Positions 18,637-38,178 are shown, counted from the first letter of the stretch. The stretch: DNA of 64,000 nucleotides from Methanoculleus sp. UBA303 (GCF_002501655.1 NZ_DANY01000024.1); one strand, 5' to 3'. Notes: generated from the letters alone by a model not told the origin. Translations and numbers: made by a program.

Positions 18637-20799
18637 ATGACGACCCCGTACCCTCCGTCCAAACGTGATGACCTCGCGAGGTTCTACGTCCTGATCGACG
18701 AACTCAAAGACCGTCTCGGAGGATATCGCTATCTGTCCCGATGCCACGATCGGATGGACTGGCCGAGACGAGGGGTCTACTTCTTCTTCGAGCCCGGTGA
18801 AGTCCGCTTCGATGGGACGGCGTTGCGGGTCGTCCGTGTAGGAACGCATGCCATAGCCACGAATACGGGTACCCGGCTCTGGCGGCGCCTCGCCACGCAC
18901 CGTGGAACCAGGAGCGGCGGCGGAAATCATCGCGGTTCGGTCTTTCGAAAACTCGTCGGCGCTGCGCTGATACACCGGGGAGACTATCCCGCCTCTGCTA
19001 CGGCACTGTGGGGAATCGGCAACACAACCCGGCGGGAGGCTCATGAGAGAGAGTGGATTGTCGAGCGGGACGTCAGCGAGTACATCGGGAGGATGCCGTT
19101 CCTCTGGCTCCCGGTTGATGACGAACCCGGACCGGAAAGCGATCGTAAGGTCATTGAAAAGAACGCGATCGCACTGCTCAGTGCGGTTCACGGAAGCCCA
19201 GACCATCCCTCCGAGACCTGGCTAGGACACGCATGCCCCCATCCGGACATGCGTGCATCCGCCCTCTGGAACTCGGATCACGTGCGGGAGCCCTACGACC
19301 CGGCATTCCTTGACCTATTTGAGGGATATGTCTCGTCCGTGGCATCCAGTGGATCTCCGCTTTCAGATGAGAGTCTTGAAATCGTCACGCAGCGACACCG
19401 AAGCATGGACGATGAACAGCACGCAGATCACCTCTGGCTTGCCACAGTCACCCTCCGCTCTGATACATTCAAGTACCCGAACAATGACCCCGAGAAGAAC
19501 CGAGCGAAGAACGAAGACCGGTTCACCGCTCTCACCCGGATCATCACCGACCTCGCGGCGAGCTATTCCGGACCGGGAGTCGTCGTGTTTCCCGGCGGGT
19601 ATTTCCATTCAGGCACTGATGAGGTCGATGCGCAGGAGAACTCTTACCTGCAGGCAATGGTGGACAGGGTTGCAGGCCTGCTGAATGCTCTGCCACATCA
19701 TCCAGCCCCGATCTATGCAACTATTGGCATTGACGGCAAGGTTGACGTTCAAGAGGGAGACTCATACCGGTACGATCGGAACCAGGTGGGCATCGCCGTC
19801 ACGCGGGACGGGCTTGTCGCATTTGCAAAGAAATTTTATCCAACGGATGATCGCGAAAAGAATCTGGTCGATCTTGCTGAAAGTTACTCCTCACGCGAAA
19901 CGGCACTCGGGCAACGATGGGATCGCGTGTTTTCGATCGGCAAGCAGGGATTCTACCTTGCCATTTGTAACGATATCAAGGGACTGCCCGCGATAGAAAA
20001 GCCAGATGGTGTCGCGTATATCCTGAATCTGGTTCATGGCTGTTATCGACCGGGTGAAGGCCCTAAATGTACTTATTTCGTTCGAATGGGATTTGGGGGT
20101 GCATCCAGGTCCTGGAAATGCCCGGTCTTCGGTACAGTTGTCTTCTTCCAACGTGACATTGCAGAGAAGTGGCGACCAGGCATGTACTACCGGACATGGG
20201 ACAAGATGCCCATACAATGCACAACCGATGAAAACAGCACCATGCCCGAGCATACTCTCGATTTGATAGCATTGGCGGACGGCTATGCCCGCGTTGATGT
20301 ATACGATCTTGACACACTACCCGCACAGGCGGCCATCACATCCGAAATATGCAGAGAGAGATCGAAGATTCCGGTGAGGTCATCGACGCCGCAAGTCCGT
20401 GAACCCGATTCAATCCTCGATGAGCGCTATAACCGGCTTCTCTCGGCACTGACACAGGTCTTCGGAAACACTGTCATGGAACAGAAGACGAAGAACACTA
20501 TCCGTGGAAAGAATGTGATCGGATATCCCGGAAAACAGCAGATCGACATGATATCGTTGTTTAAACCGGGAAAACAGAGCGGGAACGGCATAAGATTCCG
20601 TATGTACACCCATCTCATTGCGGCACATCTCAATACTGGTGAGAAAACAATTGCAGCTTTGCTCCCACAAAATTCAGTGTACGGAGAGGAGCGGGAGAAC
20701 CCGCATATTGGAGAGATCTTCCAGGAAGGTTCTTTTAAAACTGAAGGCGAGGTAGAGGCATTTCTAACCGGCGTTCAAGAGCTGCATGGCAGAGGTTGA
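18637..20799 (+). CDS. Fusion protein: GIY-YIG-like nuclease + carbon-nitrogen hydrolase (nitrilase) fold + unknown C-terminal domain
   Basis: N-terminus RRGVYFFFE...VVRVGTHA...LWRRLATHRG...IEKNAIALLS. Middle VVVFPGGYF, RNQVGIAVTRDG, AKKFYP, FYLAICNDI. 720 aa. Confidence 0.6.
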   Translation: MTTPYPPSKRDDLARFYVLIDELKDRLGGYRYLSRCHDRMDWPRRGVYFFFEPGEVRFDGTALRVVRVGTHAIATNTGTRLWRRLATHRGTRSGGGNHRGSVFRKLVGAALIHRGDYPASATALWGIGNTTRREAHEREWIVERDVSEYIGRMPFLWLPVDDEPGPESDRKVIEKNAIALLSAVHGSPDHPSETWLGHACPHPDMRASALWNSDHVREPYDPAFLDLFEGYVSSVASSGSPLSDESLEIVTQRHRSMDDEQHADHLWLATVTLRSDTFKYPNNDPEKNRAKNEDRFTALTRIITDLAASYSGPGVVVFPGGYFHSGTDEVDAQENSYLQAMVDRVAGLLNALPHHPAPIYATIGIDGKVDVQEGDSYRYDRNQVGIAVTRDGLVAFAKKFYPTDDREKNLVDLAESYSSRETALGQRWDRVFSIGKQGFYLAICNDIKGLPAIEKPDGVAYILNLVHGCYRPGEGPKCTYFVRMGFGGASRSWKCPVFGTVVFFQRDIAEKWRPGMYYRTWDKMPIQCTTDENSTMPEHTLDLIALADGYARVDVYDLDTLPAQAAITSEICRERSKIPVRSSTPQVREPDSILDERYNRLLSALTQVFGNTVMEQKTKNTIRGKNVIGYPGKQQIDMISLFKPGKQSGNGIRFRMYTHLIAAHLNTGEKTIAALLPQNSVYGEERENPHIGEIFQEGSFKTEGEVEAFLTGVQELHGRG

Positions 20800-20813: not shown

Positions 20814-21692
20814 CTATTCAACGGTGTCGCTCTCAAGCAGCCCGCTCACACAGGCAATGTACCTCCCGGCATCGGTTATGTGAACAGTGAATCGTCTGCC
20901 CATCCAGATGCGAGTGATGTAGCCTGCAGTTTCCAACTTGTGCAGGTACTTCCGGTTCGTCCTGTTGAGGAGCTCCCGGTTCAGCGAACTTGAAACATAT
21001 TCGCCGCTCTTGTTCTCCTTATCGGGCAGATGCTTGTAGCCTTCGATCCCTTTCTTCTGGAAAAGGGTGAAGAGGTCTTTGCTGGTCATTCCTTGCTCCC
21101 GCCGGTAGAGTTCGACAAGCAGCAGCTGACACTCGGCGTCCGGCATCATGATAGAGAAGTTGTACAGCGGTTCGACCCGTCCGGTCTTCACAATACTCAG
21201 ACCGTGATCTGCCTCGAGCGCGGCATCGTCGCCAGTTGCATAGCGGTCAGCATGCACATAGTACGCCGTAACCCCGTGCACCATCGCCGCCATGGTGACG
21301 GCCACCGATGTCATCCTGCCGCAGGCTGACATATTGATGAGGATCTCGTTCCCCTGCCGCTTCTCTTTCACAATCAGGGACGAGACGACCCGGAGCACGT
21401 CGAGGATGTCGAACATATTGCAGTAGGTGACTTCCGGATGGACGCCCGCCGCCAGCAACCCTTCACAGACTTTCTTCGTATAGTGACGCTGCTTCTCCAG
21501 CATCTGCTCGTCCAGATCGGCGGTGTCCGGGACAACAATGACGTACGCCCGCTCGGCCCGATAGGTATTGAACGGCTGTACTGCCCGGTCGATCTCATGC
21601 CCGAGCGGGATCAGGTGAACCCGCTCGTTCAGGCCGTCGGGCCGGGGAGGCTTGATCGGATCGGAAGTCTTCACAATAGTCACAATAGTCAC
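20814..21692 (-). CDS. CARF-like + winged-HTH transcriptional regulator (DUF6293/Csa3-like)
   Basis: Rossmann-like N-terminus RVHLIPLGHEIDR...INMSACGRMTSVA and C-terminal wHTH YLHKLETAGYITRIWMGRRFTVHITDAG. Confidence 0.75.
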   Translation of the reverse strand: MTIVTIVKTSDPIKPPRPDGLNERVHLIPLGHEIDRAVQPFNTYRAERAYVIVVPDTADLDEQMLEKQRHYTKKVCEGLLAAGVHPEVTYCNMFDILDVLRVVSSLIVKEKRQGNEILINMSACGRMTSVAVTMAAMVHGVTAYYVHADRYATGDDAALEADHGLSIVKTGRVEPLYNFSIMMPDAECQLLLVELYRREQGMTSKDLFTLFQKKGIEGYKHLPDKENKSGEYVSSSLNRELLNRTNRKYLHKLETAGYITRIWMGRRFTVHITDAGRYIACVSGLLESDTVE

Positions 21693-22510: not shown

Positions 22511-23821
22511 ATGAATACCCCTGAAGACCGCTCACGGGAAGCAAATGAGCTGAGGAAAACTGGGAGATGCAACGATGCCCTGGAGATCTATCGTGAGCTC
22601 TGGGACGGCCAGTATCACAACGGATATACTGCTGCAGGCCTGCTGCACTGTCTCCGAAAGCTACACCGTATCAACGAGGCGATGACTTTCGCCGACGAGA
22701 TCGCCGCGCGGTACCCCGATCTCAACTGGGTAAACCTTGAGGTCGCGTGGGCATACGTCGACTACATCAAGGAGATCGCAGAGGACGGAGCTTCCGTCCC
22801 GGTGCTCCACGCCTGCGGAGAGAGGGTTCTCTCCAGAAACCCGCCCCCACAACCGGTGAACCATATCGCCTTCACCATTATGAAACCGGCAAAAGACGCC
22901 AAGGACTGGAATACACTGGCAGCATGGATGTCCCGGGTCGATCCGTCGCTGCTCAGCCCGGCGGGGATGAAGCTCCCCGACGGCAAAGAAGGCTGGAGTT
23001 ACCTTGCCCGGTGGTATCACTACCGGAACATGGGTCTCATCGGCACCGGGCGAGCGCAAGAGGCCCTTCCCCTCTGCCGTGAAGCGATCGAGAAGTTTCC
23101 GAACCAGTACAAATTCTTTGCATACGACCTCGCCAGGGCGTATGCGGGCATCGGTGCGTACGAAAAGGCAGCAGAGACATTTGACGAACTCTGCCGGAAT
23201 GTCCGGCCGGACTTCTACCACCTCTTTGATTATGGAAAGGTTGTCCACCAGCTCGGCCGCCCGGAAGAAGCATTGGGACTGATGGCCCGGGCTGCGAAGG
23301 CAGGGCAACGCCCGGAGTTCATGGTCGGATACTTCATGGATATGGGTGACATCTTCAAGCAGGTCGGCCGCCTGGACGCAGCTCGCGACCACTATACGCT
23401 GGCAACAGCCCTGCGGATGCGAAATTCGTGGTCCATCCCTGCTGAATTGCAGCAGCGCCTCGATGAGAACGCCATCGCTTCGATCGAGGATTCCGTCGAG
23501 GAACTCACCTATCGGTGCAGTCGCCACTGGAGCGACTGCGAAACCGAACCGAGTCCCATAACGACGCAGTATGAGCGGGAAAAACCACTTGAGGAGGGAA
23601 TCACCGGCACGATCTATCTCGGCCATCCAGAGCGCGAGTATTTCTTCATCAACCCGCCGGGCACTGACGGATACATTGGATTCAAGAACGAGCTCACCTG
23701 GGCACCTGAAGACCGGAGCCAGGTTGTATTCGATGTGGTTCCATCGTTTAACCGGAAGAAGAACGAGTGGGCTGCAAAGGCGGCGAACGTCCGACCGACA
23801 GACAATACCCCAGCAAAGTGA
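22511..23821 (+). CDS. TPR-repeat protein with C-terminal cold-shock/OB-like domain
   Basis: Repeated helical TPR-like units (ALPLCREAIEKFP, YDLARAYAGIGAYEKAAETF, YGKVVHQLGRPEEAL). C-terminal GTIYL...YFFI...VVFDVVPS...AKAANVR resembles a CSD. Confidence 0.75.
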   Translation: MNTPEDRSREANELRKTGRCNDALEIYRELWDGQYHNGYTAAGLLHCLRKLHRINEAMTFADEIAARYPDLNWVNLEVAWAYVDYIKEIAEDGASVPVLHACGERVLSRNPPPQPVNHIAFTIMKPAKDAKDWNTLAAWMSRVDPSLLSPAGMKLPDGKEGWSYLARWYHYRNMGLIGTGRAQEALPLCREAIEKFPNQYKFFAYDLARAYAGIGAYEKAAETFDELCRNVRPDFYHLFDYGKVVHQLGRPEEALGLMARAAKAGQRPEFMVGYFMDMGDIFKQVGRLDAARDHYTLATALRMRNSWSIPAELQQRLDENAIASIEDSVEELTYRCSRHWSDCETEPSPITTQYEREKPLEEGITGTIYLGHPEREYFFINPPGTDGYIGFKNELTWAPEDRSQVVFDVVPSFNRKKNEWAAKAANVRPTDNTPAK

Positions 23822-24277: not shown

Positions 24278-27200
24278 TCAAAACAGAGTGCACCTATTTG
24301 ATGTTTTTTCAGAACCGATCACAGTTTTTAGATCAGCGATATGGTCTGTAGTAAAATAAACTGTTACCCGCCCCTTTGCAAGAACGATCTCCAATGCATT
24401 TCCTTCCATCCTTTCAAACAATGCTCTCATCAAATCACGTGACGCATTCGCATATTGGAACATTGCACTATGGTTAGGGCACAGCGCCAGATAGTTCTCA
24501 CGATGGCGTTTCTTCAGGTCAGTCAGAAATTCAACCTTCTCCACATAGTAAGTCCCATCGTCAAGCTGAAAGGGGAGCGGTTTTTTACAGATCTGACAGA
24601 TCATCACCCCATCACGATCTGTATAGTGGTCGCGAAGATATTGCTCAGCCTCTAACTTGACCTCTTCTCGGCCAATAGAGACAGAACGTTCTCGTGTTTC
24701 AGTGATCCGATCTTGAGCCATAGTGGCCTGTTGCGCAACACGTGCGGCTCTGAAGTCCGGGTTACGGGACTCATGTTCAGGGAGCTCATTCGTCCAAGGA
24801 GAACGCTGCTCTGCCAGGGGCTGATCAACAGCCAATCCTGGGCTATAAACGGGTCTGGTAGTTCCTTTGAAATCCACTGCATCACTACTCTGGCCGAACT
24901 CACCAACGATCACTCCGTCGCTTGCGGCGTGATGTGTCTGAGCACCCCCTTCACTGGAAGGAGCTGTCGTGGGTACTCCCTTCAAAGGTGATGGACTGAC
25001 AGGCGCTATATCCTCCGGAAATAAGCCAGGTTCCCTCGACAACTCAGGTTCGAGAGAGAGAGTGTTTCCGTCTTCTCCCAAGGAATCAATCCACTCCCTG
25101 ACCTCATCCGGAACTTTTAGATTTTCTTTCTTAATTCTCCATTCCCAATCGTTTTCGCCAAGGACAACTTCAACCCGGTTAGATAATTCGATGTAAGCGT
25201 GATTTGGCATTAAGCAACGGGCAATAGCCCAGGCAACAGAGTTTTTGACGTGACCACCTGAGCTGTTTGAAATAAGCAGTCTGCCCGAATCTATATCCAA
25301 GTACGCATCACAGGGTTTTTCTATCGCGATTTCCCCTAGGCGATAAACCACATTTAGTTCATCAGTCAGACATTCAGTCGTTTTCAGGAATGACTTGAGT
25401 GTTTTCCTCTCCAGCAGTCTCTTGTAATCATCCGGAAACTTTTCAAAGATCCAGGTAGCGACGAGAATTTTTGCCGAATCGGTCAGAAAATCAGGTTCTT
25501 CTTTATTTCGACGTCCACTATTTCCCACCACTGAATAGGTTACTGCATCTGAGAGATATCGAAGTCCGAAAGCCTGAAAAAATACCCCCCAATCCGCAGA
25601 AGAACCTTTTGGAGGATGCCATATCAGGTGGACGCCACTGCTTTGAAATATTTCTTTCAGTTCCCCATCGCCCGGAATAAATACAGATTCTGGAGATTCA
25701 AAGGTAGAATTCTGCGTCAATATTTTCGCTTCATGTTTGAACCCATCCCACCACGCGGGACGTTTCTCTTCAGCCATTGCACAGACAGGACGCACTTCCC
25801 GGTAGATGTTGGTCAGAATCTTTTCGATCCTCTGCTTTTCACCATCTAATTCACCCTGAAGAGACAGCCACCGCCGAGCGAAACATTCGGTGTCAACATC
25901 CTTTTTAACTGAGAGCGCATCTACAAAAAAACCCTTAAGTTTTGGGTAATGTTTTTCGAGGTAGAAGAACTCATCACCCAGCATCTCGCTGCGATCACTC
26001 CAGATGACTTCATTGATCGAAGCCCAGCGGGGCGCTGTTGCTTCCGCAGGTATGAAAAAGAGATTGCCTACCTTGAACCGTTTGATTATATCAGAATCTA
26101 GATCCAAAGAGGCGAGATATCGGTACACTCTTTCCGCGAACTCCGGGGATCCAGATCCTTTTTGCGACTGTTCTTCTAGGATGGCGACTAATTCTCCGGC
26201 GTTTACTTGATCTCTGATACCCAGTAGCTTAATCACACTTTTAGGAAGAGTCCCTCTAAAATAGGGAACAGAATCGCTAAAAATTTCTCGAATGTTCTCG
26301 AAATGGAGAAACGCTTCATCGGGACGGGTATAGCCTTTTGCCGTAGGCAGCCAAGGAGTATTTTTTAGCGATACAAGGAGTTCTGAATCGTAATTTGATT
26401 TTCTCCGAGAATAGTAAAAGTACGTGACCGTGGCTTTTAACCAAGGCATCGTTTCATTTTGGTGATTTAGCCAATTGATTAAACCTTGTGAAAATTTGAC
26501 TTTCCCTGCTTCGTCAAGCGTGTGGAAGCGATTTAATAATTCAAAAGGTCGCCAATTGGATATTTTTCTTCCACTTGTGGAATTATTATCACGTACACAT
26601 TCTCTTTCGTATACTGTCAGTGGACTAGATTCAAGATCTTCATTTTTTCGAGCTGGAGGATAGCGCGTAACCCCCACTTTATCCCACAGTTTTTCAATCC
26701 CATCCGGTAGACCAGTTACATCGTCACTGCAAATATAACGGTTTGAAAGTGAGACAAGGTGTTGCCTATCCTCTGTTGTCGCAAAGACGTTTTGCCATCC
26801 AGTTTCAGGGTCTAATGCTTCTGGCGTTACTAGGACCTGGATCCCAGGCAGGGCTTTTGCTTCCGACAGCAGCATCTTCCTGTTATCCGAGAGCAATACC
26901 GGAATATCCTTGAAATCAATCTCCTCCACTTCGGCAAACTGTGAGAGAAAAATGGTTACAGATACGAGCTCATCTTCTGATAGATATTTATACCCTATTT
27001 TAAGCGAGTCCAGAATATCAACTGCGCAATTTGCTTTTGAGAAGGGCTTAATTCTCAAAATTTTGGTCATCCAGTCGCAGATCTGTTTGTCGTTTTTTAT
27101 TTTGCTGTAAAAATCCTTATGCAGAAAGGCCAGTGTTACACAGGTGCACTCAGGGACATCCCTCAGTGCTTTCTCACAGTCCTCATCGCATTCGAAATAA

Positions 27201-28735
27201 ATTGGTTGCTCCCTGTCACAGGACCAGCGTGTTCCATTTTCCATCTCTATCGGGACAATCGGACAACCTGCCAAACCGGCTTCTGAAATAGAGGTAGACG
27301 AGAGATACTGGTAACTCTCTAGTAGCCAATCTAGGCTGTGCTGCTCAACCCAACCCCTGTCCAGAAAGCACTGTCTGACAATACCAGACGTATAATGTCT
27401 GACGCCAATATGTTCCAGTTGTTTTTTGTACGCCTCAATACTCTCCAGGACAAGCCGGTTAGCTAATAGTGCATCTGGATACGCCTTTGCCGAAAGCAAA
27501 GAGCGAAAATTCTTTCCTGCGGTCAAGGTCTCGGATGGCTTACATCTCTTCCCATCAGGTTCGGTCAGGATGACTTCTCGATCTTTGAGCGTATCCTGAA
27601 TCGATTCTACAACCGGTTTAAAGAACGCCACGTGTGACTCAAGGGGAATAAAACGATATATTATCTCACCAAATTCGGTGATGTCCAGACATTTCTCAAA
27701 CGCTTCAACAAAAACTGCAGGAATGCAATCCCGAAGCCATTGGTTCCAGGGTTCATCCTCATGGATAGCCTCGCGGGAACTTGGCAGGAGGAAATCAGCG
27801 TTGAGTAGAAATGGCAGGCCTGTATCTTCACGTACAGGGAGGTAGGCAAAAACCTTGCCGGCACTTTTAGTCTCGCTGTTTAGCGGGAACGCAATCGAGA
27901 CAGATCTATTTTCAATCCCTTTCCTCTTTTCCGGGTTAATATCTGCTGGTTTGTCAAAAGATTGGGTGTGTAAAATGAATTCTTGAGTATAAGCAAAAGA
28001 CTCACCTTGATCTTTCCCTTCAACCAGAACTTGAACCAGTGGTGTATTGGTATCATCTTTCCGTATCGAGCGTTTGTAGCCAGATTCTGTTTCTATGACA
28101 ATTTCTTTCAGTTTCGAAAGGAAAAGAATAGTTACCGGATCGATTTCTTGGAGCATTTTCGCGATATGCTCGTAGGAAAAGTGCGGTTTGCTGAGCGGCA
28201 GGATGATCGTAGTTCCTGATCCGCTGAGGTTTCTAGGAGCTTCGTCGATCCACCGGGGTACGATATATCCCAGTCCGGTTATCTCATTGTGCTCCGGTAA
28301 GCAGAATCTGTAGCCATTGGAGAAAATATGAGGGTTTGTTGTCACACGGAAGACGGACTTAAAGCCAATTCCCTTCTCGCCGATATACCCCTGAACTTTG
28401 GTTTTGGTTGACTCACCTACCTTGCAGATAGCATCGACATTTTCAGGGGAAAAGCCAACCTCGTTGTTTTGAATGATCATCGCCCCGTCTGATCCGGGAG
28501 TGCCCATTGGATCAGATCTTACCAATCGAAAGGAAAGGGATGGTTTCAGTGCAGTATATGCGTTATCTTCCGCATTCTGGATTAACTCAAAGATGAAATG
28601 AGTATCCTTGTTATACAGGTCTCCTGCAAGGATCTTGATCGAGTTATAGAGGCTATCCCTGACGCGCGGCACACTGCTTGCTGCCTCGAACTCCCCACGT
28701 ATTTGTGCGATATGATTCCATGGATCTAAAACCAT
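24278..28735 (-). CDS. Sacsin/HSP90-like (GHKL) ATPase with long helical body and C-terminal HNH-like domain (Tiamat-like architecture)
   Basis: GHKL motifs FELIQNAEDN, NNEVGFS, IGEKGIGFKSVF. C-terminal CQICK...YYVEKVEF...NYLALCPNHSAMF. Start could be 28735, 28750 or 28837. Confidence 0.8.
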   Translation of the reverse strand: MVLDPWNHIAQIRGEFEAASSVPRVRDSLYNSIKILAGDLYNKDTHFIFELIQNAEDNAYTALKPSLSFRLVRSDPMGTPGSDGAMIIQNNEVGFSPENVDAICKVGESTKTKVQGYIGEKGIGFKSVFRVTTNPHIFSNGYRFCLPEHNEITGLGYIVPRWIDEAPRNLSGSGTTIILPLSKPHFSYEHIAKMLQEIDPVTILFLSKLKEIVIETESGYKRSIRKDDTNTPLVQVLVEGKDQGESFAYTQEFILHTQSFDKPADINPEKRKGIENRSVSIAFPLNSETKSAGKVFAYLPVREDTGLPFLLNADFLLPSSREAIHEDEPWNQWLRDCIPAVFVEAFEKCLDITEFGEIIYRFIPLESHVAFFKPVVESIQDTLKDREVILTEPDGKRCKPSETLTAGKNFRSLLSAKAYPDALLANRLVLESIEAYKKQLEHIGVRHYTSGIVRQCFLDRGWVEQHSLDWLLESYQYLSSTSISEAGLAGCPIVPIEMENGTRWSCDREQPIYFECDEDCEKALRDVPECTCVTLAFLHKDFYSKIKNDKQICDWMTKILRIKPFSKANCAVDILDSLKIGYKYLSEDELVSVTIFLSQFAEVEEIDFKDIPVLLSDNRKMLLSEAKALPGIQVLVTPEALDPETGWQNVFATTEDRQHLVSLSNRYICSDDVTGLPDGIEKLWDKVGVTRYPPARKNEDLESSPLTVYERECVRDNNSTSGRKISNWRPFELLNRFHTLDEAGKVKFSQGLINWLNHQNETMPWLKATVTYFYYSRRKSNYDSELLVSLKNTPWLPTAKGYTRPDEAFLHFENIREIFSDSVPYFRGTLPKSVIKLLGIRDQVNAGELVAILEEQSQKGSGSPEFAERVYRYLASLDLDSDIIKRFKVGNLFFIPAEATAPRWASINEVIWSDRSEMLGDEFFYLEKHYPKLKGFFVDALSVKKDVDTECFARRWLSLQGELDGEKQRIEKILTNIYREVRPVCAMAEEKRPAWWDGFKHEAKILTQNSTFESPESVFIPGDGELKEIFQSSGVHLIWHPPKGSSADWGVFFQAFGLRYLSDAVTYSVVGNSGRRNKEEPDFLTDSAKILVATWIFEKFPDDYKRLLERKTLKSFLKTTECLTDELNVVYRLGEIAIEKPCDAYLDIDSGRLLISNSSGGHVKNSVAWAIARCLMPNHAYIELSNRVEVVLGENDWEWRIKKENLKVPDEVREWIDSLGEDGNTLSLEPELSREPGLFPEDIAPVSPSPLKGVPTTAPSSEGGAQTHHAASDGVIVGEFGQSSDAVDFKGTTRPVYSPGLAVDQPLAEQRSPWTNELPEHESRNPDFRAARVAQQATMAQDRITETRERSVSIGREEVKLEAEQYLRDHYTDRDGVMICQICKKPLPFQLDDGTYYVEKVEFLTDLKKRHRENYLALCPNHSAMFQYANASRDLMRALFERMEGNALEIVLAKGRVTVYFTTDHIADLKTVIGSEKTSNRCTLF

Positions 28736-28849
28736 TCTCTCAACTCCCATTGTCCGCCAGATTATGAGTTCAACACGTTCGTTCCCAGAAACTGTTTTCC
28801 AACTCGAAGCTCCCGGTTGCGGTGCGGACGTTCTCACCCATGCAGCACA

Positions 28850-31800
28850 TCACCTTACCAGAACAGTCCCGAACATCACCGGAGTTGCGTGAATATCACC
28901 ACTGCTTGCAGTTTGTTGGAGACCTTTCATACGCCGGTTGAAATCAGCGTTAGCCCTCGCCAGCTCACTCCGTTTCATCAATAGGATCTTCTCGTTTGCG
29001 TTTCCCCGAATCTGATCCTCAATAGCCTTACATCGTGCCTGGTGGCTCACCATCAGGCTCTGGATGCGGTATTCAACCTGCTGACGGTTTTCAGCAATGT
29101 GATTCGACCGTGCGGCAGTCCACCGGGTGTAATGTCGGCCGTCCAGATCTTCAAATTCAGACGGATCAGGTAGTATAGCATTTTCGATGTCCGTTGCAGA
29201 CTCCAAAATTGACAGCAGTACCTCTTCAATGGCTGGTTCAGAGGCGACCGGGACAAGTAACTCATCCGGGTTCACACCCTGCTTCTTCCAGCGATATAGT
29301 CCGAAAAGATAGTTCCCGGGTGGCACCTCTGCATTCTGCACGGAGAGAGCAGTGTAAACTACCTGATTAGGTTGTAGAAAATGGGCAGCCTGCCTCACCA
29401 GGGGATGCACTACTGATAGATACACAACCTTTGTCTGTTCTGCCGCTGCCTCCTGATCAAAGGTGACGGACAAGGTAGGCTGATCGCCCTTGAGCCACCC
29501 CTCCCATTCTCGAGCGACTGGTTCGGATGAGCGGGGTAGACGTTTGAAATCTTCGAGCAGTCGGCCTCTGGCTTCCATGTTGAGTCTTAAAGTCTTGATA
29601 GCCCTCTCTCCGAGCAGGTGTTCCGTTTCTGTGCCGAGGATGTCTGCAATATAGCAGGATACACACCGCTGAATCGCTTCCGGAGATAACCAGTAACTGT
29701 CAGCCTCCTCGATCTCCTGAAGCCAGGTATGGTTCGGTATATTCAGTCCAACCAGTTCGGCCTGCCTCGTTTCAAGTTCCTGTTCCTCCTCAATCCGGCG
29801 AATACTGTTATCTGCAAGCTGACGAAGTCTACTTTCGCGTTCCTCTAGAGTTAGGGTAAATCTCTCGGCAATTTCATGAATCTCCTGGGTTATCTCTCCA
29901 AGAATCTCTTCATTCCCGCCAACAGAATGCTGGAAAACACCGATGCGCCATAGGCAGCGCTCATAGATATCGGCATCAATAGTACCGGGTGTAACGAAGT
30001 TAACGATGGCAACAGTCTCGCTTTTCTGCCCGTAGCGATCGATGCGACCAATACGCTGTTCGATTCGCATGGGATTCCAGGGCAGGTCATAATTGATAAG
30101 GAAATCACAGAATTGGAAGTCGAGACCTTCACAGCCCACCTCAGAAGACAGGAGAAGATCGATGGCCAGGGGGTCTTCCTTGGGTAAAGCAAACCGACGG
30201 CGCAGATCGGCGCGTTCCTCATCTCGCACACTCCCATGAATAAGTCCGTAGCGCAGTTCCGTGCGTTCCACGTACTCGGCCAGGTAGGCCAATGTGTGGC
30301 GGAATGTGCTAAAAACGAGAATTTTGTTGTTGGATAACTTACTCTTCTCCGTAATAATTCTGACAAATGCTTCGACCTTTGGATCGGAAGGGTCTAAGTT
30401 ATGAGATTTCTCCAGCAGAGCCTTGATGTCTGTCCGCAACTGATCGATGGAGCTGAAATCGGGCTCATCGTCGCTGTCACTCACCTCCATAAACTCAAGG
30501 CCGTTGAGGTGCCCGCTCAGCATGTCTTCGAGGAGTGGAGCCAATCCATAAAGGCAACTCGCTGCTTGCCGGCGAACTGTTGTCATCATAAATTTTACAT
30601 TCTGCTGATCATGACTGAACGCCAGAGCCGTTTCGATTATGTCGAGGAAACTGTCGTGAAATTCCTTTTGTGCAGCAGTAAATTCGACCGTCACGGTTTC
30701 GGGCTTACGCGTGGTGAACTCTCCGATATCGCGCCGACGTGTTCGATTAATCAATGAACTAAATGTGTATAATTCTTCAATTGACCGGGTCAACTGGATT
30801 CTATCGATATCTGTGAGCGAATTTTCCCGCAGGCGATCATAAATGCCCTGAAATACCGCTGATTCTCGCAGGAACTGTCGACCCCATGGGGTCTGGGCCA
30901 CCGCTTTAAGACTGATAAGGGCGTTATCCTGCCAACCGTCCGATCCTCTGCGGCAATGTTGCACCGCTTCTGTAATATAACGGTTCGGCTCCGCCATGCG
31001 GTCATAACTGACGGAGTCAATTATCAGATCAGGCCTCAGTACATTGAGCAGGGTATAAAGATCGCGGCTATTCAATTGAACCGGTGTTGCGGTGAGGAAA
31101 ACAACAGCTTCGGCATGGTCACAGAAATAGCGTATTCCCTCATGCAGGTAAGTATCCGGGTTTCGAATATGGTGAGCCTCGTCAACAATAACCAGATCAA
31201 ACTTCGGTGGCGGATCCAACGATAGCAAACTCTGATGCTTTCGCCGGCCAGGCTCCTGTGGGCCGGACAAAAGTTTTTGATCGAAAAGTGAAAATGGCAG
31301 AATGGCCTTAGCGTACTGTTCAGGCCATTCTCCCTCGAGGTGAGTTTCATGAAGACAGTGTCTGAGCAGTTTGCCATCTAACGCGGTGAAGCGTTCGTCA
31401 AAGCGCTTCATCTCCACATACCACTTCCGTTCAGCGACCAGAGCACGGGGACAGATGATCAGAACTGATGACAGGTCCATTCTTGCTTGCAGTTCCTTCA
31501 TTATGAGTCCCGCTTCGATGGTCTTGCCGACACCCACTTCATCGGCGATCAATAGGCGTGGACGATCGGATCGGATCATCTTCAAAACCGGCCGATATTG
31601 GTAAGGGACAAACTGGACTCGACCTGAACGTAAGGAAAGGAGATGCGTGGTTGAGGGTGACAGAAGTTGAATACTTGTCAGATAAGCCTGCACTTCGTTG
31701 GATGTGAGCACCCTGCGTTCATCTGTAACCTCAGAGACCGCTTGTAACTGGCTTTCGTAGTAGGTGGCTGGGCTAGAATCTTGAAAAACACGATAACGAC

Positions 31801-32437
31801 ACTCACCAAACCCCGGGAGCACTTCAATCACCGGCATCACTTTTTCCGGGTTTGAACGCAGGGTAACAAGATCGCCCTTTTGGAACAGCGAAGCAGGGGA
31901 GGGAGGATTACTCACATTAGTAGCGTGAGTTTCGGAATGTTCACTTGGGCAGGACAACGCATGGGATGGCAGGCAATGTGCCTGGATAATGCCATCATTG
32001 GCTCTTGCCATCGAAGTAACCGCTGCCGCTTTCACTCCTTCTACAGCTTCCAGGGAAACATCCAAAGCCTCAACCATCATCAGAAGGCGACCAAGAGTAT
32101 CTGCATCCCGATATCTTTCGCTGTCTGGCATCGCATCTGAAGACAGATGAGCCCATCTATTACGCACAGTCTGAAGTTCCTTTACCCAGGTTCGACCTTC
32201 ACGGGGCAAGGAAAACATCCTGGAAAGTTCGTACCAGTTCTGATCCAGCACCCTCAGCAGTGCAGCAAAATCAAGCTGTCGGAGCGACGTATAACCCTGC
32301 TCCTGTATGAATCTCTGCTGCTGAAAACTTAGGCATTCCATAACATTCTGCTGCCACCAGTCTGGAGATAGATCCGGCAATCTCGAGTTGAGAAACCGGG
32401 ATAACTCCACTGTTGCTATTTGGATGAGGTTGTTCAA
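28850..32437 (-). CDS. Swt1-like HEPN domain fused to SNF2/RapA-like helicase
   Basis: HEPN RxxxxH motif RNRWAH. SNF2 motifs LIADEVGVGKT, IVDEAHH, LTATP, SEVGCEGLDFQ, YDLPWNPMRIEQRIGRIDR. Likely TTG start at 32437 after an AGGGGAGG RBS. Confidence 0.88.
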   Translation of the reverse strand: MNNLIQIATVELSRFLNSRLPDLSPDWWQQNVMECLSFQQQRFIQEQGYTSLRQLDFAALLRVLDQNWYELSRMFSLPREGRTWVKELQTVRNRWAHLSSDAMPDSERYRDADTLGRLLMMVEALDVSLEAVEGVKAAAVTSMARANDGIIQAHCLPSHALSCPSEHSETHATNVSNPPSPASLFQKGDLVTLRSNPEKVMPVIEVLPGFGECRYRVFQDSSPATYYESQLQAVSEVTDERRVLTSNEVQAYLTSIQLLSPSTTHLLSLRSGRVQFVPYQYRPVLKMIRSDRPRLLIADEVGVGKTIEAGLIMKELQARMDLSSVLIICPRALVAERKWYVEMKRFDERFTALDGKLLRHCLHETHLEGEWPEQYAKAILPFSLFDQKLLSGPQEPGRRKHQSLLSLDPPPKFDLVIVDEAHHIRNPDTYLHEGIRYFCDHAEAVVFLTATPVQLNSRDLYTLLNVLRPDLIIDSVSYDRMAEPNRYITEAVQHCRRGSDGWQDNALISLKAVAQTPWGRQFLRESAVFQGIYDRLRENSLTDIDRIQLTRSIEELYTFSSLINRTRRRDIGEFTTRKPETVTVEFTAAQKEFHDSFLDIIETALAFSHDQQNVKFMMTTVRRQAASCLYGLAPLLEDMLSGHLNGLEFMEVSDSDDEPDFSSIDQLRTDIKALLEKSHNLDPSDPKVEAFVRIITEKSKLSNNKILVFSTFRHTLAYLAEYVERTELRYGLIHGSVRDEERADLRRRFALPKEDPLAIDLLLSSEVGCEGLDFQFCDFLINYDLPWNPMRIEQRIGRIDRYGQKSETVAIVNFVTPGTIDADIYERCLWRIGVFQHSVGGNEEILGEITQEIHEIAERFTLTLEERESRLRQLADNSIRRIEEEQELETRQAELVGLNIPNHTWLQEIEEADSYWLSPEAIQRCVSCYIADILGTETEHLLGERAIKTLRLNMEARGRLLEDFKRLPRSSEPVAREWEGWLKGDQPTLSVTFDQEAAAEQTKVVYLSVVHPLVRQAAHFLQPNQVVYTALSVQNAEVPPGNYLFGLYRWKKQGVNPDELLVPVASEPAIEEVLLSILESATDIENAILPDPSEFEDLDGRHYTRWTAARSNHIAENRQQVEYRIQSLMVSHQARCKAIEDQIRGNANEKILLMKRSELARANADFNRRMKGLQQTASSGDIHATPVMFGTVLVR

Positions 32438-33515
32438 AGTTTCCTCCCCTCTTAACCGATTATAGAGCATTTTCGCCTTTGATACAACTACCAATTGTGC
32501 AAAATACGAGATCTATCACCGGTAATCAACAAAGACCATGATCTACGCTAGACGCTTCCCTAGTATTTCCTCTGACCAATCCTCAAACCACTTTTCCATC
32601 CATGCTCTGGATCATCTGATTTTTGCCTAAGTTTATCAACCGTGTTGAGGATTGAAATGATCAAGCCGCTATATATCTCTAGTATTGATTGAAACTATCT
32701 AAATATTCCGGAAAGTAAAAAATCTCTTCTTAAAATTAAGATTCGATGTCAATCAGCTCGTTAGTGAAACCATCTGGATCTCTACGAGGGTCAGGAGGTG
32801 AAACATCGGAACTATCTCTCCAAAAGCACCACATACGACACCTGCTCGTGCCAGCTCAAGTGCCACGACCGTCCAGCGAGATCTACTACGTCACGTTCTT
32901 CCGCGATGCGGTCTGGATCACAAGCTACCAGGACAATGCTATCCGCCAACGGTCGAGACCAGGGCAGATGGCATCCCGGAGCTCAGGTGAGAGGGAGCGC
33001 CCTCTCTCCGCACTGGAAAATGGCTATTTTTGGTTATTGCCCAGTTTTGAGGCCAGTTTCAGAGGGTGGATCTCGGCGGAATTATAACCCGGAGCATAGC
33101 GCCCGGGTTCCTGAAATACAGAGGAAACATCGAGATATAATAGCCGTATGGGGGACAGTAATTTTGAGGAGGTGGAATCTACGCCTCGCCTCGAGATCGG
33201 CCATCTTTGAGCGCCTATAGGCGTCTGTGAGGGTGGTTCTTCCGGTGGATGCGGCTGGGAGTGCAGGTATATATGGATTGCTTAACCGGAACAGCCGCGA
33301 GCATGCCCGGCCCTGAGCCGGTGATGCGAGCGGCGGGCTGGAGCAGCCGTCACGCTGCGAGGCCGTGCCGAGCGAGTGGGGGCGTCCGAGATCCCGTACG
33401 CCGGGAAGAACCAGGGCGATGTTCTGCAGCGACCACTGGGAGCAAAGAAGCTCGCCCGGCTGCTCCCGCCCTCGAAAACGGAGAGGCCTCCTCCCCGCCC
33501 CGGTATTGGAGCACT

Positions 33516-36932: not shown

Positions 36933-38156
36933 TCACCGCGCCTCGCCCAGCCGCTGCTCGATCATGCTCCAGACCGCCTTGAACTCAGGGGTCTGCTCGA
37001 TCTCGCGGCGGACGCCCTCCAGGCCGATCCGGACCTCGTCGGAGAGCGGCTGGCCGCACTGCATGCAGAACTGGTGCGTGGGGGCGTTGATCGTCATGCA
37101 GTTTGCGCACTGGTGGGCGGTCATCGACCCGGTCTGCCGCTCCTCCTCCCGCCGGATCCCCATCCGGGTCAGGATCTCGGTGTCGATGTCCCGGTTGGTC
37201 AGGTGCATGTAGGTGTCGAGCATCGTCGTGTTGACATCGCCCCACATCACCTGCTTGATGATCGACTCGTTGTAGTTGCTCCGGACCATCTCGGTGATCC
37301 GGGAGTGGCGGAAGAGGTGCGGGGTGACGTGCTTCGGCACCCCAGCCCGGTGAGCGATCTTCCGGAGTTGCGCCGCCACCCCGGCGTAGCGCAGCGGGCG
37401 CCGCTGCTGGGAGAGGAAGACCAGCGCCTCGCCGGCCGGCTCGAAGGGGTAGTCGTTCCGCCAGGTGGCCAGATAGGAGGCGGTGGCGATCAGCCGGACG
37501 TAGCGGGGTTTCTCAGTCTTGACGTCGACGTTGACCACCACCCCGTAGTTGTCGAAGAGGACCTGCTCCCAGGTGAGCTCTCCCACCTCCTTGACCCGGA
37601 ACCCGCCCTCGTAGAGCAGCGAGACTATTGCCCGGTCACGGGACGACTGGCACACTCCGATCATCGCCAGGACGTGATCCTCGGTGAGGAGCTGCTCGGC
37701 GGTCTTGGTCATCTTGTCGGTGCGGGGGACTTTAATCTGCTTAACCTTGTCGCGGGGCACCCGGGAGAGGTCGTTCTCGATCAGCCAGAGGTAGAACCGC
37801 TTCAGGAAATTCAGAAAATCCCGCATCGTGTTCTGCCGGTAGGGGTGGCCGTCGACCCGGTGGTTCCGTAGGGCCTCGATCCCGCGGTAGAGATCGTAGA
37901 TCGAGTTCTCGGCATAGGGGCCGATGAACTGCCGCAGGCTGACCAGAGTGTAGGTGATCTTGTTCGCCCGCGAGGTGCCGATGCCTTTCGATGCCCGGAT
38001 CTCGGTGATAAAGTCCCGGATCAGGTCGGCATCTTGCGCCGTGAGGGTGCCCTGCTCCACTCCCCGGCGTAGGGAGTTCTCGGCGTATTCGGGCTTAATG
38101 TTGTGGAATGCGCGATCGTGGACAGTCGGTGCTTTTGATCGTGATTTTACTGGCAT
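36933..38156 (-). CDS. Tyrosine recombinase/integrase with C-terminal zinc ribbon
   Basis: RDRAIVSLLYEGGFRVKE (R), KTEKPR (K), HLFRHSR (HxxR), MWGD and TYMH (Y); C-terminal CANC...CMQC. Confidence 0.95.
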   Translation of the reverse strand: MPVKSRSKAPTVHDRAFHNIKPEYAENSLRRGVEQGTLTAQDADLIRDFITEIRASKGIGTSRANKITYTLVSLRQFIGPYAENSIYDLYRGIEALRNHRVDGHPYRQNTMRDFLNFLKRFYLWLIENDLSRVPRDKVKQIKVPRTDKMTKTAEQLLTEDHVLAMIGVCQSSRDRAIVSLLYEGGFRVKEVGELTWEQVLFDNYGVVVNVDVKTEKPRYVRLIATASYLATWRNDYPFEPAGEALVFLSQQRRPLRYAGVAAQLRKIAHRAGVPKHVTPHLFRHSRITEMVRSNYNESIIKQVMWGDVNTTMLDTYMHLTNRDIDTEILTRMGIRREEERQTGSMTAHQCANCMTINAPTHQFCMQCGQPLSDEVRIGLEGVRREIEQTPEFKAVWSMIEQRLGEAR

Positions 38157-38178
38157 AAAACAGTCTTTTTGCCGCGTA

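What the first reader, a model, noticed from the sequence alone, without database searches (positions are those of the whole stretch)
24278..32437. Two-gene module: Swt1-HEPN-SNF2 helicase plus sacsin/HSP90-like ATPase with HNH-like tail
Seen: two co-oriented very large genes (~1195 and ~1485 aa) about 115 bp apart, with similar intermediate base composition, in a defence island. Together they combine a putative RNase (intact HEPN RNRWAH), a dsDNA translocase (SNF2), a GHKL clamp ATPase and a putative DNase (CxxC...LCPNH; the usual first His appears replaced, EKVEF). Known: Tiamat is a single-gene HSP90-like ATPase defence protein, Swt1-HEPN occurs on ATPases of restriction-like systems, and SNF2 helicases occur in DISARM and Zorya. 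I do not recall this pairing as a named system. Inference: a translocase-activated dual RNase/DNase abortive or restriction-like system.
Basis: partly seen in the sequence, partly recalled or inferred. Interest (0 to 1): 0.76.

Follow-up and report, generated by a model that had tools for sequence, protein, structure and literature searches.

The report
Two-gene Tiamat-like helicase-ATPase defence module
Two very large neighbouring genes in a methanogen's defence island are one copy of a widespread, mobile and experimentally untested gene pair, a DNA motor carrying an RNA-cutting domain plus a Tiamat-like ATPase with a dead nuclease finger, that most likely protects cells against viruses or plasmids.

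Summary
Two co-oriented minus-strand genes occupy 24278-32494. The upstream protein (1214 aa) has a HEPN_Swt1 domain, a Tudor/KOW-like barrel and a RapA/DrmD-like SNF2 ATPase. The downstream protein (1519 aa) is a sacsin-type GHKL ATPase that matches PADLOC TmtA (Tiamat) at E 2e-146.

The pairing is not an accident of adjacency. Of the close SNF2 homologues with enough downstream DNA, 76 of 78 are followed directly by a TmtA-like gene. These copies span about ten bacterial phyla and Methanomicrobiales.

The "HNH-like tail" is a real McrA-type HNH fold, but both catalytic histidines are lost, so the proposed DNase arm is unsupported. This dead-HNH tail marks the SNF2-linked partners. Homologues without an SNF2 neighbour carry the canonical Tiamat NOV_C nuclease instead.

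The HEPN domain has a conserved RNRWAH motif but is optional, present in 37 of 55 complete pairs.

A preprint from October 2026 (Yuan et al.) already classifies HNH-like Tiamat-like proteins as Type IV-A and those with a helicase-nuclease neighbour as Type IV-B. This locus is therefore an archaeal member of a catalogued but untested kind.

The likely mechanism, which is inferred, is an ATP-gated sensor clamp plus a DNA translocase, with the HEPN RNase as effector.

The parts
28850..32494 (-). Gene 1: HEPN_Swt1 / Tudor-KOW-like barrel / SNF2 ATPase / RapA_C-like C-terminal region. The longest frame is 1214 aa; the probable ATG start is at 32470.
   Evidence: ORF and translation. Pfam HEPN_Swt1, SNF2-rel_dom and Helicase_C. 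PADLOC DrmD PDLC02623 at 4e-110. The closest solved relative is RapA, E 8e-36.
32072..32407 (-). Swt1-type HEPN domain (residues 30-141). The Rx4H motif RNRWAH lies at residues 111-116 (nt 32147-32164).
   Evidence: Pfam PF18731, 60.2 bits against a cut-off of 27.5. The motif is kept in 20 of 22 HEPN-bearing homologues. The AF2 model is helical with pLDDT above 95.
31730..31882 (-). Small SH3-like (Tudor/KOW/chromo-like) beta-barrel (residues ~205-255) between the HEPN domain and the motor.
   Evidence: The AF2 model has pLDDT 89-95 here. Foldseek hits at probability 0.99-1.0 include NusG/Spt5 KOW, 53BP1 Tudor and the UvrD C-terminal Tudor bound to RNA polymerase. Residues G207, V236, F237, Y246, S248 and Q249 are invariant even in HEPN-less homologues.
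30029..31558 (-). SNF2 ATPase core (residues 313-822), with Walker A GVGKT, DEAH, TATP and motif VI QRIGRIDRYGQ intact.
   Evidence: Pfam hits. Motif positions. These motifs are invariant across 17 homologues from many phyla.
28853..29797 (-). Conserved C-terminal region of the SNF2 protein (residues 900-1214), weakly RapA_C-like.
   Evidence: Pfam RapA_C at E 0.002 on the excised piece. It is 25-63% identical in all partnered homologues.
24278..28837 (-). Gene 2: Tiamat-like (TmtA-like) sacsin-type GHKL ATPase with a degenerate HNH tail. The longest frame is 1519 aa; the public gene call is 1485 aa from ATG 28735.
   Evidence: ORF and translation. PADLOC TmtA PDLC03972 at 2.4e-146 over residues 56-1251. 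Database gene call P0003.
28187..28615 (-). Sacsin/Hsp90-type GHKL ATP-binding domain (residues ~75-217). It contains the motif I sequence ELIQNAEDN, with the presumed catalytic Glu84 and Mg-binding Asn88.
   Evidence: Pfam SACS at 6.4e-14, NCBIfam P_loop_sacsin at 69 bits against a cut-off of 50, and a weak match to HSP90 PRK14083. Human sacsin SRR structure 5v45 at E 2.6e-5. The motif residues are invariant in 23 homologues.
24653..25084 (-). Poorly conserved, probably flexible linker (residues ~1252-1395) between the TmtA-homologous core and the tail.
   Evidence: It lies outside the TmtA HMM match. The consensus is mostly 'x' in alignment A1. pLDDT is low in the modelled part.
24281..24670 (-). 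McrA-type HNH-like zinc-finger tail (residues ~1390-1519). CQIC lies at nt 24587-24598 and LCPNH at nt 24470-24484. The catalytic His positions are replaced.
   Evidence: The family profile hits the HNH domains of EcoKMcrA 6ghc (E 5.9e-8) and TagI 6ghs (E 4.4e-5). The AF2 model has pLDDT 84 and its top Foldseek hit is 6ghc at probability 0.99. PADLOC mREase_IV at E 2e-4.

Best explanation
The locus is an archaeal copy of a widespread, horizontally mobile two-gene module. It is best described as a two-component Tiamat-like system and probably corresponds to 'Type IV-B' of Yuan et al. 2026.

Gene 2 encodes a sacsin-type GHKL ATPase that is homologous to the anti-phage protein Tiamat along its ATPase and central regions. 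Its C-terminal PD-(D/E)xK nuclease has been replaced by a catalytically degenerate McrA-type HNH zinc finger. Gene 1 encodes its dedicated partner, a RapA/DrmD-like SNF2 double-stranded-DNA translocase. In this copy the partner also carries an N-terminal Swt1-type HEPN RNase domain and a Tudor/KOW-like barrel.

Shown here: the domain content, the near-obligate gene pairing, the strict link between the dead-HNH tail and the SNF2 partner, the conserved HEPN active-site motif, the patchy distribution, the inter-phylum and inter-domain transfer, and the defence-island location.

Inferred mechanism: the Tiamat-like protein acts as an ATP-gated sensor clamp on invader nucleic acid, with the dead HNH finger serving as a DNA-binding or docking module. 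It recruits or licenses the SNF2 motor. Clamp dimerisation would bring two HEPN domains together to form the composite RNase site. RNA cleavage would then stop the infection, probably in an abortive or dormancy-like manner. The module would not act as a DNA-cutting restriction enzyme.
For: Pairing, forward direction: among 80 loci retrieved with TmtA homologues, 47 have an SNF2 gene directly upstream on the same strand. These SNF2 genes are 53-72% identical to the window's. No other gene family is conserved around the pair.

Pairing, reverse direction: among loci retrieved with the SNF2 protein from metagenomes, 34 of 36 with at least 44% identity and at least 1.5 kb of downstream DNA are followed by a TmtA-like gene. 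Over both sets the figure is 76 of 78.

All three partner size classes hit the PADLOC TmtA models.

Tail versus partner: the tail HMM is present in 31 of 32 complete SNF2-linked partners. It is present in only 1 of 19 homologues without an SNF2 neighbour, and that one has an SNF2 remnant (Fisher p = 1e-11, not corrected for shared ancestry). Six of six homologues without an SNF2 neighbour that were tested carry NOV_C.

The tail is a McrA-like HNH fold lacking the catalytic histidines.

HEPN: RNRWAH is kept in 20 of 22 homologues. It is established knowledge that HEPN RNases need dimerisation and that GHKL ATPases dimerise on ATP binding; Yuan et al. restate the HEPN point.

Defence character: the island carries Gabija, type I R-M and Wadjet genes and ends at an integrase beside a tRNA. 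Only 1 of 37 genomes in the same genus has the pair. In the SNF2 tree the archaeal clade is sister to a Chloroflexota sequence with 100/100 support, and phyla are intermixed. Copies occur on rhizobial plasmids, one of them conjugative.

Literature: B. cereus Tiamat is a validated anti-phage ATPase and DNase, and helicase neighbours are common among Tiamat-like proteins.
Against: No experiment exists for any member of this pair.

Eighteen of 55 complete pairs lack HEPN and still have a dead HNH tail. The conserved core therefore has no recognisable nuclease, and HEPN cannot be the universal effector.

No trigger is known.

A direct interaction between the tail and the SNF2 protein is not supported by co-evolution. 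The Mantel correlation between SNF2 and tail distances is r = 0.16, against r = 0.45 for SNF2 and GHKL distances.

The held text of Yuan et al. does not say which helicase-nuclease defines Type IV-B, because the figure is not held. The equation with IV-B is therefore an inference.

Co-transcription is inferred only from the spacing of 114 nt here and 0-130 bp elsewhere.
Confidence: 0.6

Rival explanations
1. Restriction-like DNA degradation. The SNF2 motor translocates on foreign DNA, and the HNH-like tail is an unconventional but active DNase. The HEPN domain adds RNA cleavage where present.
For: The tail is homologous to the HNH domains of the type IV restriction enzymes EcoKMcrA and TagI. 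Some family members keep a His, or have a Tyr, at the general-base position, as in SHIV, GHIV and NYIV. Yuan et al. note that PacI cleaves DNA without canonical HNH residues. Canonical Tiamat is a DNase.
Against: In the window protein the McrA 'HH' pair is replaced by Lys-Val, and the metal-ligand His nine residues after the conserved Asn is Ser. That metal-ligand position is Phe, Ser, Ala or Cys in every homologue examined. No methyltransferase or other self/non-self marker is conserved beside the pair.
Confidence: 0.17
2. Nuclease-free core mechanism. The GHKL clamp and the RapA-like motor entrap, compact or strip replication or transcription machinery from invading DNA. The HEPN domain is an optional add-on.
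For: Eighteen of 55 complete pairs have neither HEPN nor a competent HNH, yet they conserve both ATPases, the Tudor/KOW-like barrel and the zinc finger. The closest solved relative of the motor is RapA, which remodels RNA polymerase complexes. The barrel resembles RNA-polymerase-binding Tudor and KOW domains.
Against: In copies that have HEPN, its active-site motif appears to be under purifying selection, judged from conservation of the motif. Near-identical motors move between bacteria and archaea, which argues against docking on a host-specific RNA polymerase. HEPN-less copies may use a neighbouring nuclease, for example the RecB-like gene behind the Ensifer plasmid copy.
Confidence: 0.15
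3. Two independent defence genes, a solo Tiamat and a DISARM-type DrmD remnant, that merely lie side by side in an island.
For: PADLOC treats TmtA as a single-gene system. The helicase's best PADLOC model is DrmD.
Against: Pairing is 76 of 78 across many phyla, with the same order, strand and 0-130 bp spacing. The helicase scores 322 bits against the DrmD cut-off of 610, and no DrmA, DrmB, DrmC or methylase is nearby. Partnered proteins lack the Tiamat nuclease that solo Tiamats keep.
Confidence: 0.03
4. A housekeeping nucleic-acid surveillance or transcription-recycling function, RapA-like and sacsin-like, rather than defence.
For: The motor resembles RapA and the barrel has a Tudor/KOW-like fold. 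Eukaryotic sacsin and NO VEIN have non-defence roles.
Against: The pair is present in 1 of 37 genomes in the same genus. Its GC content is foreign to the host, and it sits inside an integrase-bounded island with four other defence systems. It is carried on plasmids, and one copy in the same order is a pseudogene.
Confidence: 0.05

Closest known systems
Tiamat (TmtA; Millman et al. 2022; biochemistry in Yuan et al., bioRxiv 10.64898/2026.09.30.754977)
   Same: Both have a sacsin/Hsp90-type GHKL ATPase followed by a long central region. PADLOC TmtA matches at E 2.4e-146 over residues 56-1251. The ATP-site motifs are conserved.
   Different: Canonical Tiamat is a single gene with a C-terminal NOV_C PD-(D/E)xK nuclease. 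Here that nuclease is absent and a dead McrA-type HNH finger stands in its place. The gene is almost always preceded by a dedicated SNF2 gene.
Tiamat-like Type IV-A / Type IV-B (Yuan et al. 2026 preprint; classification only, no experiments on this type)
   Same: [quoted passage not shown] Type IV-B is listed among neighbourhoods with a helicase fused to a nuclease, and Swi/Snf is among the associated helicase families. This matches what I find.
   Different: The held text does not name the IV-B helicase or nuclease, because the figure is not held.
DISARM DrmD (SNF2 helicase of class 1 DISARM)
   Same: It is the best PADLOC model for gene 1 (PDLC02623, E 4e-110). Both have a RapA-like SNF2 architecture.
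   Different: Gene 1 scores 322 bits, below the NCBIfam DrmD cut-off of 610. No DrmA, DrmB, DrmC or methylase lies nearby. DrmD has no HEPN domain.
Hma system (HmaA SNF2-NOV_C nickase, HmaB methylase, HmaC DUF499 ATPase; Payne et al. 2021; Liu et al. 2024, PMC11232893)
   Same: The same domain vocabulary appears in a different permutation. Hma has an SNF2 motor fused to the Tiamat-type NOV_C nuclease, and its operon includes a Swt1-family HEPN fused to the DUF499 ATPase (Anantharaman et al. 2013, PMC3710099). HmaA alone defends against T4 in an abortive-like way.
   Different: Here the HEPN domain is on the SNF2 protein, the ATPase is GHKL rather than AAA+, there is no methylase and there is no NOV_C. 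The PADLOC HmaA hit is weak at 1.5e-38.
EcoKMcrA / TagI HNH domains (type IV restriction endonucleases; PDB 6ghc, 6ghs)
   Same: The tail shares the beta-beta-alpha-metal fold and the CxxC...CxxC/H zinc site. Profile E-values are 5.9e-8 and 4.4e-5, and the Foldseek probability is 0.99.
   Different: The general-base and metal-ligand histidines are replaced, and the McrA N-terminal 5mC-reading domain is absent.
E. coli RapA (RNA-polymerase-associated SWI2/SNF2 ATPase)
   Same: It is the closest solved relative of the motor (E 8e-36). There is a weak RapA_C match, and a Tudor-like barrel precedes the ATPase as in RapA.
   Different: Gene 1 scores 189 bits against the RapA equivalog cut-off of 576. 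It carries a HEPN domain, sits in a mobile accessory island, and occurs in archaea as well as bacteria.

Membership tests
Tiamat (strict: GHKL + DUF3684 + NOV_C, single gene) | N-terminal sacsin/Hsp90-like GHKL ATPase with intact ATP-site motifs | tested here: met
   Pfam SACS at 6.4e-14, NCBIfam P_loop_sacsin at 69 bits against a cut-off of 50, and PADLOC TmtA at 2.4e-146. The residues of the ELIQNAEDN and GEKGIGFKS motifs are invariant in 23 homologues.
Tiamat (strict: GHKL + DUF3684 + NOV_C, single gene) | Central Tiamat-type region (DUF3684 and flanks) | tested here: inconclusive
   The PADLOC TmtA model aligns through residue 1251. Pfam gives no DUF3684 hit, even on the excised middle region at E up to 10.
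Tiamat (strict: GHKL + DUF3684 + NOV_C, single gene) | C-terminal NOV_C / PD-(D/E)xK nuclease | tested here: not met
   There is no NOV_C hit. The C-terminus is a McrA-type HNH-like finger. NOV_C is found in six of six homologues without an SNF2 neighbour, which served as a positive control.
Tiamat (strict: GHKL + DUF3684 + NOV_C, single gene) | Acts as a single gene | not testable with these tools
   Synteny argues against it: 76 of 78 copies are paired with an SNF2 gene. Only genetics can decide.
Tiamat-like Type IV-A/IV-B (Yuan et al. 2026) | [quoted passage not shown] | tested here: met
   The family profile hits McrA HNH at E 5.9e-8 and Foldseek gives 6ghc at probability 0.99. McrA's His-His pair is replaced by Lys-Val, and the metal-ligand His by Ser.
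Tiamat-like Type IV-A/IV-B (Yuan et al. 2026) | Neighbouring helicase fused to a nuclease domain (IV-B) | tested here: inconclusive
   A HEPN-SNF2 gene lies directly upstream. The paper's held text does not specify the IV-B helicase or nuclease, so identity with IV-B is inferred from my finding that HNH-tailed partners are almost always linked to an SNF2 gene.
DISARM | DrmD equivalog score | tested here: not met
   NF038317 scores 321.7 bits against a cut-off of 610.
DISARM | DrmA/DrmB (DUF1998 helicase pair), DrmC and a methyltransferase in the locus | tested here: not met
   Pfam and PADLOC scans of all flanking ORFs find none. No such family is conserved in 47 related loci.
Hma | SNF2 with C-terminal NOV_C nuclease, plus HmaB methylase and HmaC DUF499 ATPase | tested here: not met
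   Gene 1 has no NOV_C, and there is no methylase or DUF499 neighbour. HmaA is only a secondary PADLOC hit.
HEPN RNase (Swt1-like family) | HEPN fold with Rx4-6H motif | tested here: met
   PF18731 scores 60.2 bits against a cut-off of 27.5. RNRWAH lies at residues 111-116 and is conserved in homologues. The model is helical with pLDDT above 95.
HEPN RNase (Swt1-like family) | RNase activity | not testable with these tools
   This needs a biochemical assay.
HNH endonuclease (McrA-like) | Beta-beta-alpha-metal fold with zinc-binding CxxC...CxxC/H | tested here: met
   The cysteines of CQIC (residues 1414, 1417) and of LCPNH (residue 1453) are invariant, and a His or Cys follows the last one.
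HNH endonuclease (McrA-like) | General-base His and metal-ligand His/Asn | tested here: not met
   The alignment to 6ghc shows Lys-Val in place of His-His, and Ser in place of the His that follows the second zinc pair.
RapA | RapA equivalog score | tested here: not met
   NF003426 scores 189 bits against a cut-off of 576.

The most novel reading that the evidence does not exclude
The conserved core is an SNF2 motor with a Tudor/KOW-like barrel plus a sacsin-type GHKL clamp with a dead HNH zinc finger. It could be a self-sufficient immune machine that needs no modification enzyme and works in both bacteria and archaea. ATP-driven clamp closure on invader DNA would license the motor and, where present, assemble the HEPN RNase dimer. 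On this reading it would be a prokaryotic counterpart of the sacsin-ATPase-plus-HEPN combination seen fused in animal sacsin. It would also be a reshuffling of the same parts used by Tiamat and Hma.
Probability: 0.25. Interest if true: 0.75.

Novelty: new member of a known kind. Interest (0 to 1): 0.5.

Why it matters
Tiamat is one of the least understood validated anti-phage proteins, and its relatives include plant NO VEIN and human sacsin. This pair is a natural split version in which the ATPase has lost its own nuclease and depends on a dedicated DNA motor. That makes it a good system for asking what the sacsin-type ATPase senses and how it signals.

The pair occurs in many phyla and crosses the bacteria-archaea boundary with little change. 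It therefore probably works independently of host-specific factors and should transplant into laboratory hosts.

No member has been tested. A positive result would add a widespread two-gene system to the defence catalogues, which currently score only the TmtA half and mislabel the helicase as DrmD-like.

Tried and rejected
1. Tail-motor co-evolution. I suspected the dead-HNH tail is the SNF2-docking module and tracks the motor. A distance-matrix (Mantel) test on 55 pairs gave r = 0.16 for SNF2 against tail, and r = 0.45 for SNF2 against GHKL. For example, L011 has a 68%-identical motor but a 17%-identical tail. The idea that the tail tracks the motor is not supported. The three parts instead recombine.

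2. A conserved third gene. ORF clustering over 80 loci found none outside lineage-specific synteny. The Poribacteria upstream genes are a polysaccharide exporter, RtcB and an IS605 transposase.

3. A split HEPN gene in the HEPN-less rhizobial plasmid copies. The small overlapping upstream gene is not HEPN (hhalign probability 1%). By eye it looks sigma-factor/HTH-like.

4. An att repeat for the island. The 3' end of tRNA-Glu is not repeated in this contig. A second identical copy is on contig C1.

5. Phage carriage. There is no TmtA-like match in 50,697 phage records.

6. Pfam on the excised tail, linker, barrel and middle region gave nothing significant. The tail was resolved only by a family profile and a fold search.

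8. My recollection that HmaC is a GHKL ATPase was wrong. It is a DUF499 AAA+ ATPase.

Full report
**What is there**

The minus strand carries two long open frames. One runs 28850-32494 (1214 codons). It is followed, after 12 nt in the longest reading, by 24278-28837 (1519 codons).

The public gene call for the second protein starts at Met35 (nt 28735; 1485 aa). A GGGAG sits 8 nt upstream of that ATG, and the start leaves a 114-nt spacer. The first gene most likely starts at ATG 32470.

GC content is 0.50 and 0.46 for the two genes. The neighbouring island genes are at 0.56-0.60 and the core genome to the right of tRNA-Glu is at 0.615.

The surroundings form a defence island. It carries GajB, HsdR, a type III Wadjet operon, an HNH protein, PDC-M57B, a CARF-like HFX_2341 protein and a TPR protein. 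It ends at a tyrosine integrase beside tRNA-Glu at 36933-38294. The host is an archaeon of the Methanomicrobiales; the closest named homologues come from Methanofollis, Methanocalculus and a Methanomicrobiales MAG.

**Gene 1**

Pfam finds HEPN_Swt1 (residues 30-141; 60 bits against a cut-off of 27.5), SNF2-rel_dom and Helicase_C. The Rx4H motif RNRWAH is at residues 111-116, and all SNF2 motor motifs are intact.

The best defence-library model is DrmD (E 4e-110). However, the NCBIfam DrmD and RapA equivalogs are both far below their cut-offs, at 322 against 610 and 189 against 576. The closest solved relative is RapA.

An AlphaFold2 model of residues 1-310 was built on 22 homologues and has mean pLDDT 80. 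It shows a helical HEPN domain with pLDDT above 95 and a small beta-barrel at residues ~205-255. That barrel matches KOW, Tudor and chromo folds, including the RNA-polymerase-binding Tudor domain of UvrD.

**Gene 2**

The N-terminus is a sacsin-type GHKL ATPase (Pfam SACS, NCBIfam P_loop_sacsin, human sacsin structure 5v45). PADLOC TmtA (Tiamat) matches residues 56-1251 at E 2.4e-146. There is no NOV_C domain, which is the PD-(D/E)xK nuclease of canonical Tiamat.

Pfam does not recognise it. A profile of 21 homologous tails hits the HNH domains of EcoKMcrA (6ghc, E 5.9e-8) and TagI (6ghs, E 4.4e-5). An AlphaFold2 model with pLDDT 84 has 6ghc as its top Foldseek match at probability 0.99, followed by other HNH proteins.

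In the alignment to McrA, the His-His pair of McrA's EVHHVIP corresponds to Lys-Val in the window protein. The metal-ligand His of McrA's CPNCH corresponds to Ser, and the window's His in CPNH takes the place of the fourth zinc ligand. The metal-ligand position is non-catalytic in every homologue I looked at. The general-base position is His in a few, Tyr in many and aliphatic in the window's clade.

The tail is therefore a genuine but catalytically degenerate McrA-type HNH zinc finger. This agrees with the description of 'Type IV-A' Tiamat-like proteins in Yuan et al..

**Is the pairing real?**

Forward test. I retrieved 80 genomic loci with a profile of TmtA homologues. In 47 of them an SNF2 gene 53-72% identical to the window's lies directly upstream on the same strand, ending 0-130 bp before the ATPase gene. 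The hosts include Desulfobacterota, Myxococcota, Bacteroidota, Acidobacteriota, Cloacimonadota, Chloroflexota, Poribacteria, Planctomycetota, Lentisphaerota, Nitrospirota, Pseudomonadota and Methanomicrobiales. No other gene family is conserved around the pair.

Reverse test. I retrieved 80 metagenomic loci with the SNF2 profile. Of the 36 with at least 44% identity and at least 1.5 kb of downstream DNA, 34 carry a sacsin-type ATPase gene next. Over both sets the figure is 76 of 78.

The partners fall into three classes:
- long, about 1450-1550 aa, as in this window;
- short, about 1000-1250 aa, with a closely related ATPase domain;
- short, with an ATPase domain only 23-32% identical to the window's.

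All three classes hit the TmtA models and nearly all end in the same zinc-finger tail.

Among complete TmtA homologues with room upstream, the tail is present in 31 of 32 partners linked to an SNF2 gene. It is present in 1 of 19 without an SNF2 neighbour, and that one retains an SNF2 remnant. Fisher's exact test gives p = 1e-11, but the loci are related, so this overstates the number of independent events. Six of six homologues without an SNF2 neighbour that I tested carry NOV_C.

The pattern is clear. Solo Tiamat carries its own nuclease. The paired form has lost that nuclease and always has the motor.

**HEPN is optional**

In 37 of 55 complete pairs the motor carries HEPN. In 18, including all the Poribacteria and the rhizobial plasmid copies, it starts at the barrel. 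Where HEPN is present its motif is kept; R111, N112, W114 and H116 are at least 90% conserved.

**Mobility**

Only the window's genome among 37 in its genus has the pair. Three other genomes of the order have close copies, one of them with two in-frame stops.

In a maximum-likelihood tree of the motor, the two archaeal sequences form a clade (support 99/94) that is sister to a Chloroflexota sequence (100/100). Bacterial phyla are intermixed. Copies sit on rhizobial plasmids, one of them conjugative. None is found in phage records.

**Mechanism**

Nothing has been measured for this pair, so the following is inference. Established knowledge gives four starting points:
- GHKL ATPases dimerise on ATP binding.
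- HEPN RNases need a dimer to form their active site.
- SNF2 enzymes translocate on double-stranded DNA.
- B. cereus Tiamat needs its ATPase for defence and cuts DNA with its NOV_C domain.

The most economical model has the Tiamat-like protein as the sensor clamp, with the dead HNH finger retained for DNA binding or docking. The clamp works with its dedicated motor, and in HEPN-bearing copies clamp closure assembles the RNase that halts infection.

Two facts weaken this model. A third of pairs have no recognisable nuclease at all. In addition, the tail does not co-evolve with the motor. A nuclease-free core mechanism, or an unconventional HNH activity, therefore remain live rivals.

The near-identity of motors across the bacteria-archaea divide argues against dependence on a host-specific partner such as RNA polymerase, despite the RapA-like features.

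**Comparison with what is known**

The ATPase fails the strict Tiamat definition because it has no NOV_C domain. It fits the Tiamat-like Type IV-A description, and with its helicase-nuclease neighbour probably fits Type IV-B, in the October 2026 preprint of Yuan et al.. The held text does not name the IV-B helicase. My synteny makes the Swi/Snf-HEPN assignment likely, at about 85% in my estimate.

The pair is not DISARM and not Hma. Hma, Tiamat and this pair do permute the same parts: SNF2, NOV_C, Swt1-HEPN and an ATPase. Anantharaman et al. 2013 had already listed a Swt1-HEPN fusion to a SWI2/SNF2 ATPase, without the partner.

Earlier notes of this scan describe the same pair in at least seven other genomes, with the same general reading. 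They are not independent evidence. I reached my reading before seeing them.

**Verdict**

The two-gene-module interpretation is supported. The DNase arm is not supported, and the 'unnamed' status is overtaken by a preprint.

This is an archaeal member of a widespread, catalogued but experimentally untested kind. It has moderate interest, mainly as a tractable entry point into how sacsin-type ATPases work.

Noticed in passing
window 1-38294: The whole left part of the window is one defence island. It carries a GajB-like UvrD helicase (175-1647), HsdR (1644-4628), an 877-aa orphan (4683-7316), type III Wadjet jetDABC (7337-15112), an HNH_4 protein (15576-16442), an RNase III-like protein (17045-17509), two OGG-like proteins, a PDC-M57B fusion (18637-20799), a CARF-like HFX_2341 protein (20814-21692) and a TPR protein (22511-23821). 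It ends at an integrase (36933-38156) beside tRNA-Glu (38220-38294).
   Followed up: partly
window 38220-38247; own genome contig C1:47331-47358: The 28-nt 3' end of tRNA-Glu(CTC) is not repeated elsewhere on this contig, so no att repeat was found. An identical copy lies on contig C1. It may be a second tRNA-Glu gene or the other end of a split island.
   Followed up: partly
L170:6280-6834, L171:6405-6935, L172:6306-6836 (rhizobial plasmids): The HEPN-less plasmid copies of the pair are preceded by a conserved 176-185-aa gene that overlaps the SNF2 start by 4 bp in the two Rhizobium copies (by 20 bp in the Ensifer copy). It is not HEPN. By eye it looks like a sigma-70-region-4/HTH-type regulator. 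It may be a lineage-specific regulator of the module.
   Followed up: partly
L170:13147-16536 (Ensifer adhaerens conjugative plasmid): A 1129-aa protein with PD-(D/E)xK, RNase H-like and SF1 (Upf1-like) helicase domains lies 12 bp behind the HEPN-less pair. It could supply a nuclease in trans or be a separate defence gene. It is absent from the two Rhizobium copies.
   Followed up: partly
L036, L047 (Poribacteria); L006: Some loci carry two Tiamat-like genes per motor. In L036 and L047 the order is SNF2, partner, partner, and both partners have the tail. In L006 a 1000-aa tail-bearing paralogue lies upstream of the pair. This suggests partner duplication or exchange.
   Followed up: no
G041:C1:108196-111750 and G041:C7:78829-81945 (genome of the same order): One related methanogen has a 65%-identical SNF2 copy with two in-frame TAA stops, probably a pseudogene. 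It also has a second, 39%-identical HEPN-less copy.
   Followed up: no
L145, L134 (metagenome contigs): Two much more distant SNF2 genes, about 32% identical to the window's, are also followed about 1 kb downstream by a sacsin-like ATPase gene. In L145 that gene has a weak tail-HMM hit. The association may therefore extend beyond the clade studied.
   Followed up: no
window 24278-32494, compared with animal sacsin and the Hma system: A sacsin-type ATPase and a HEPN domain are fused in animal sacsin and split across two genes here. Hma combines SNF2 with NOV_C and Swt1-HEPN with an AAA+ ATPase. The same parts recur in different permutations, which hints at a shared functional logic.
   Followed up: partly
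window 32620-32760: An AT-rich stretch upstream of the SNF2 gene contains a TATATA element near 32672. It could be an archaeal promoter. This was not tested because the promoter tool covers only bacterial sigma-70 sites.
   Followed up: no
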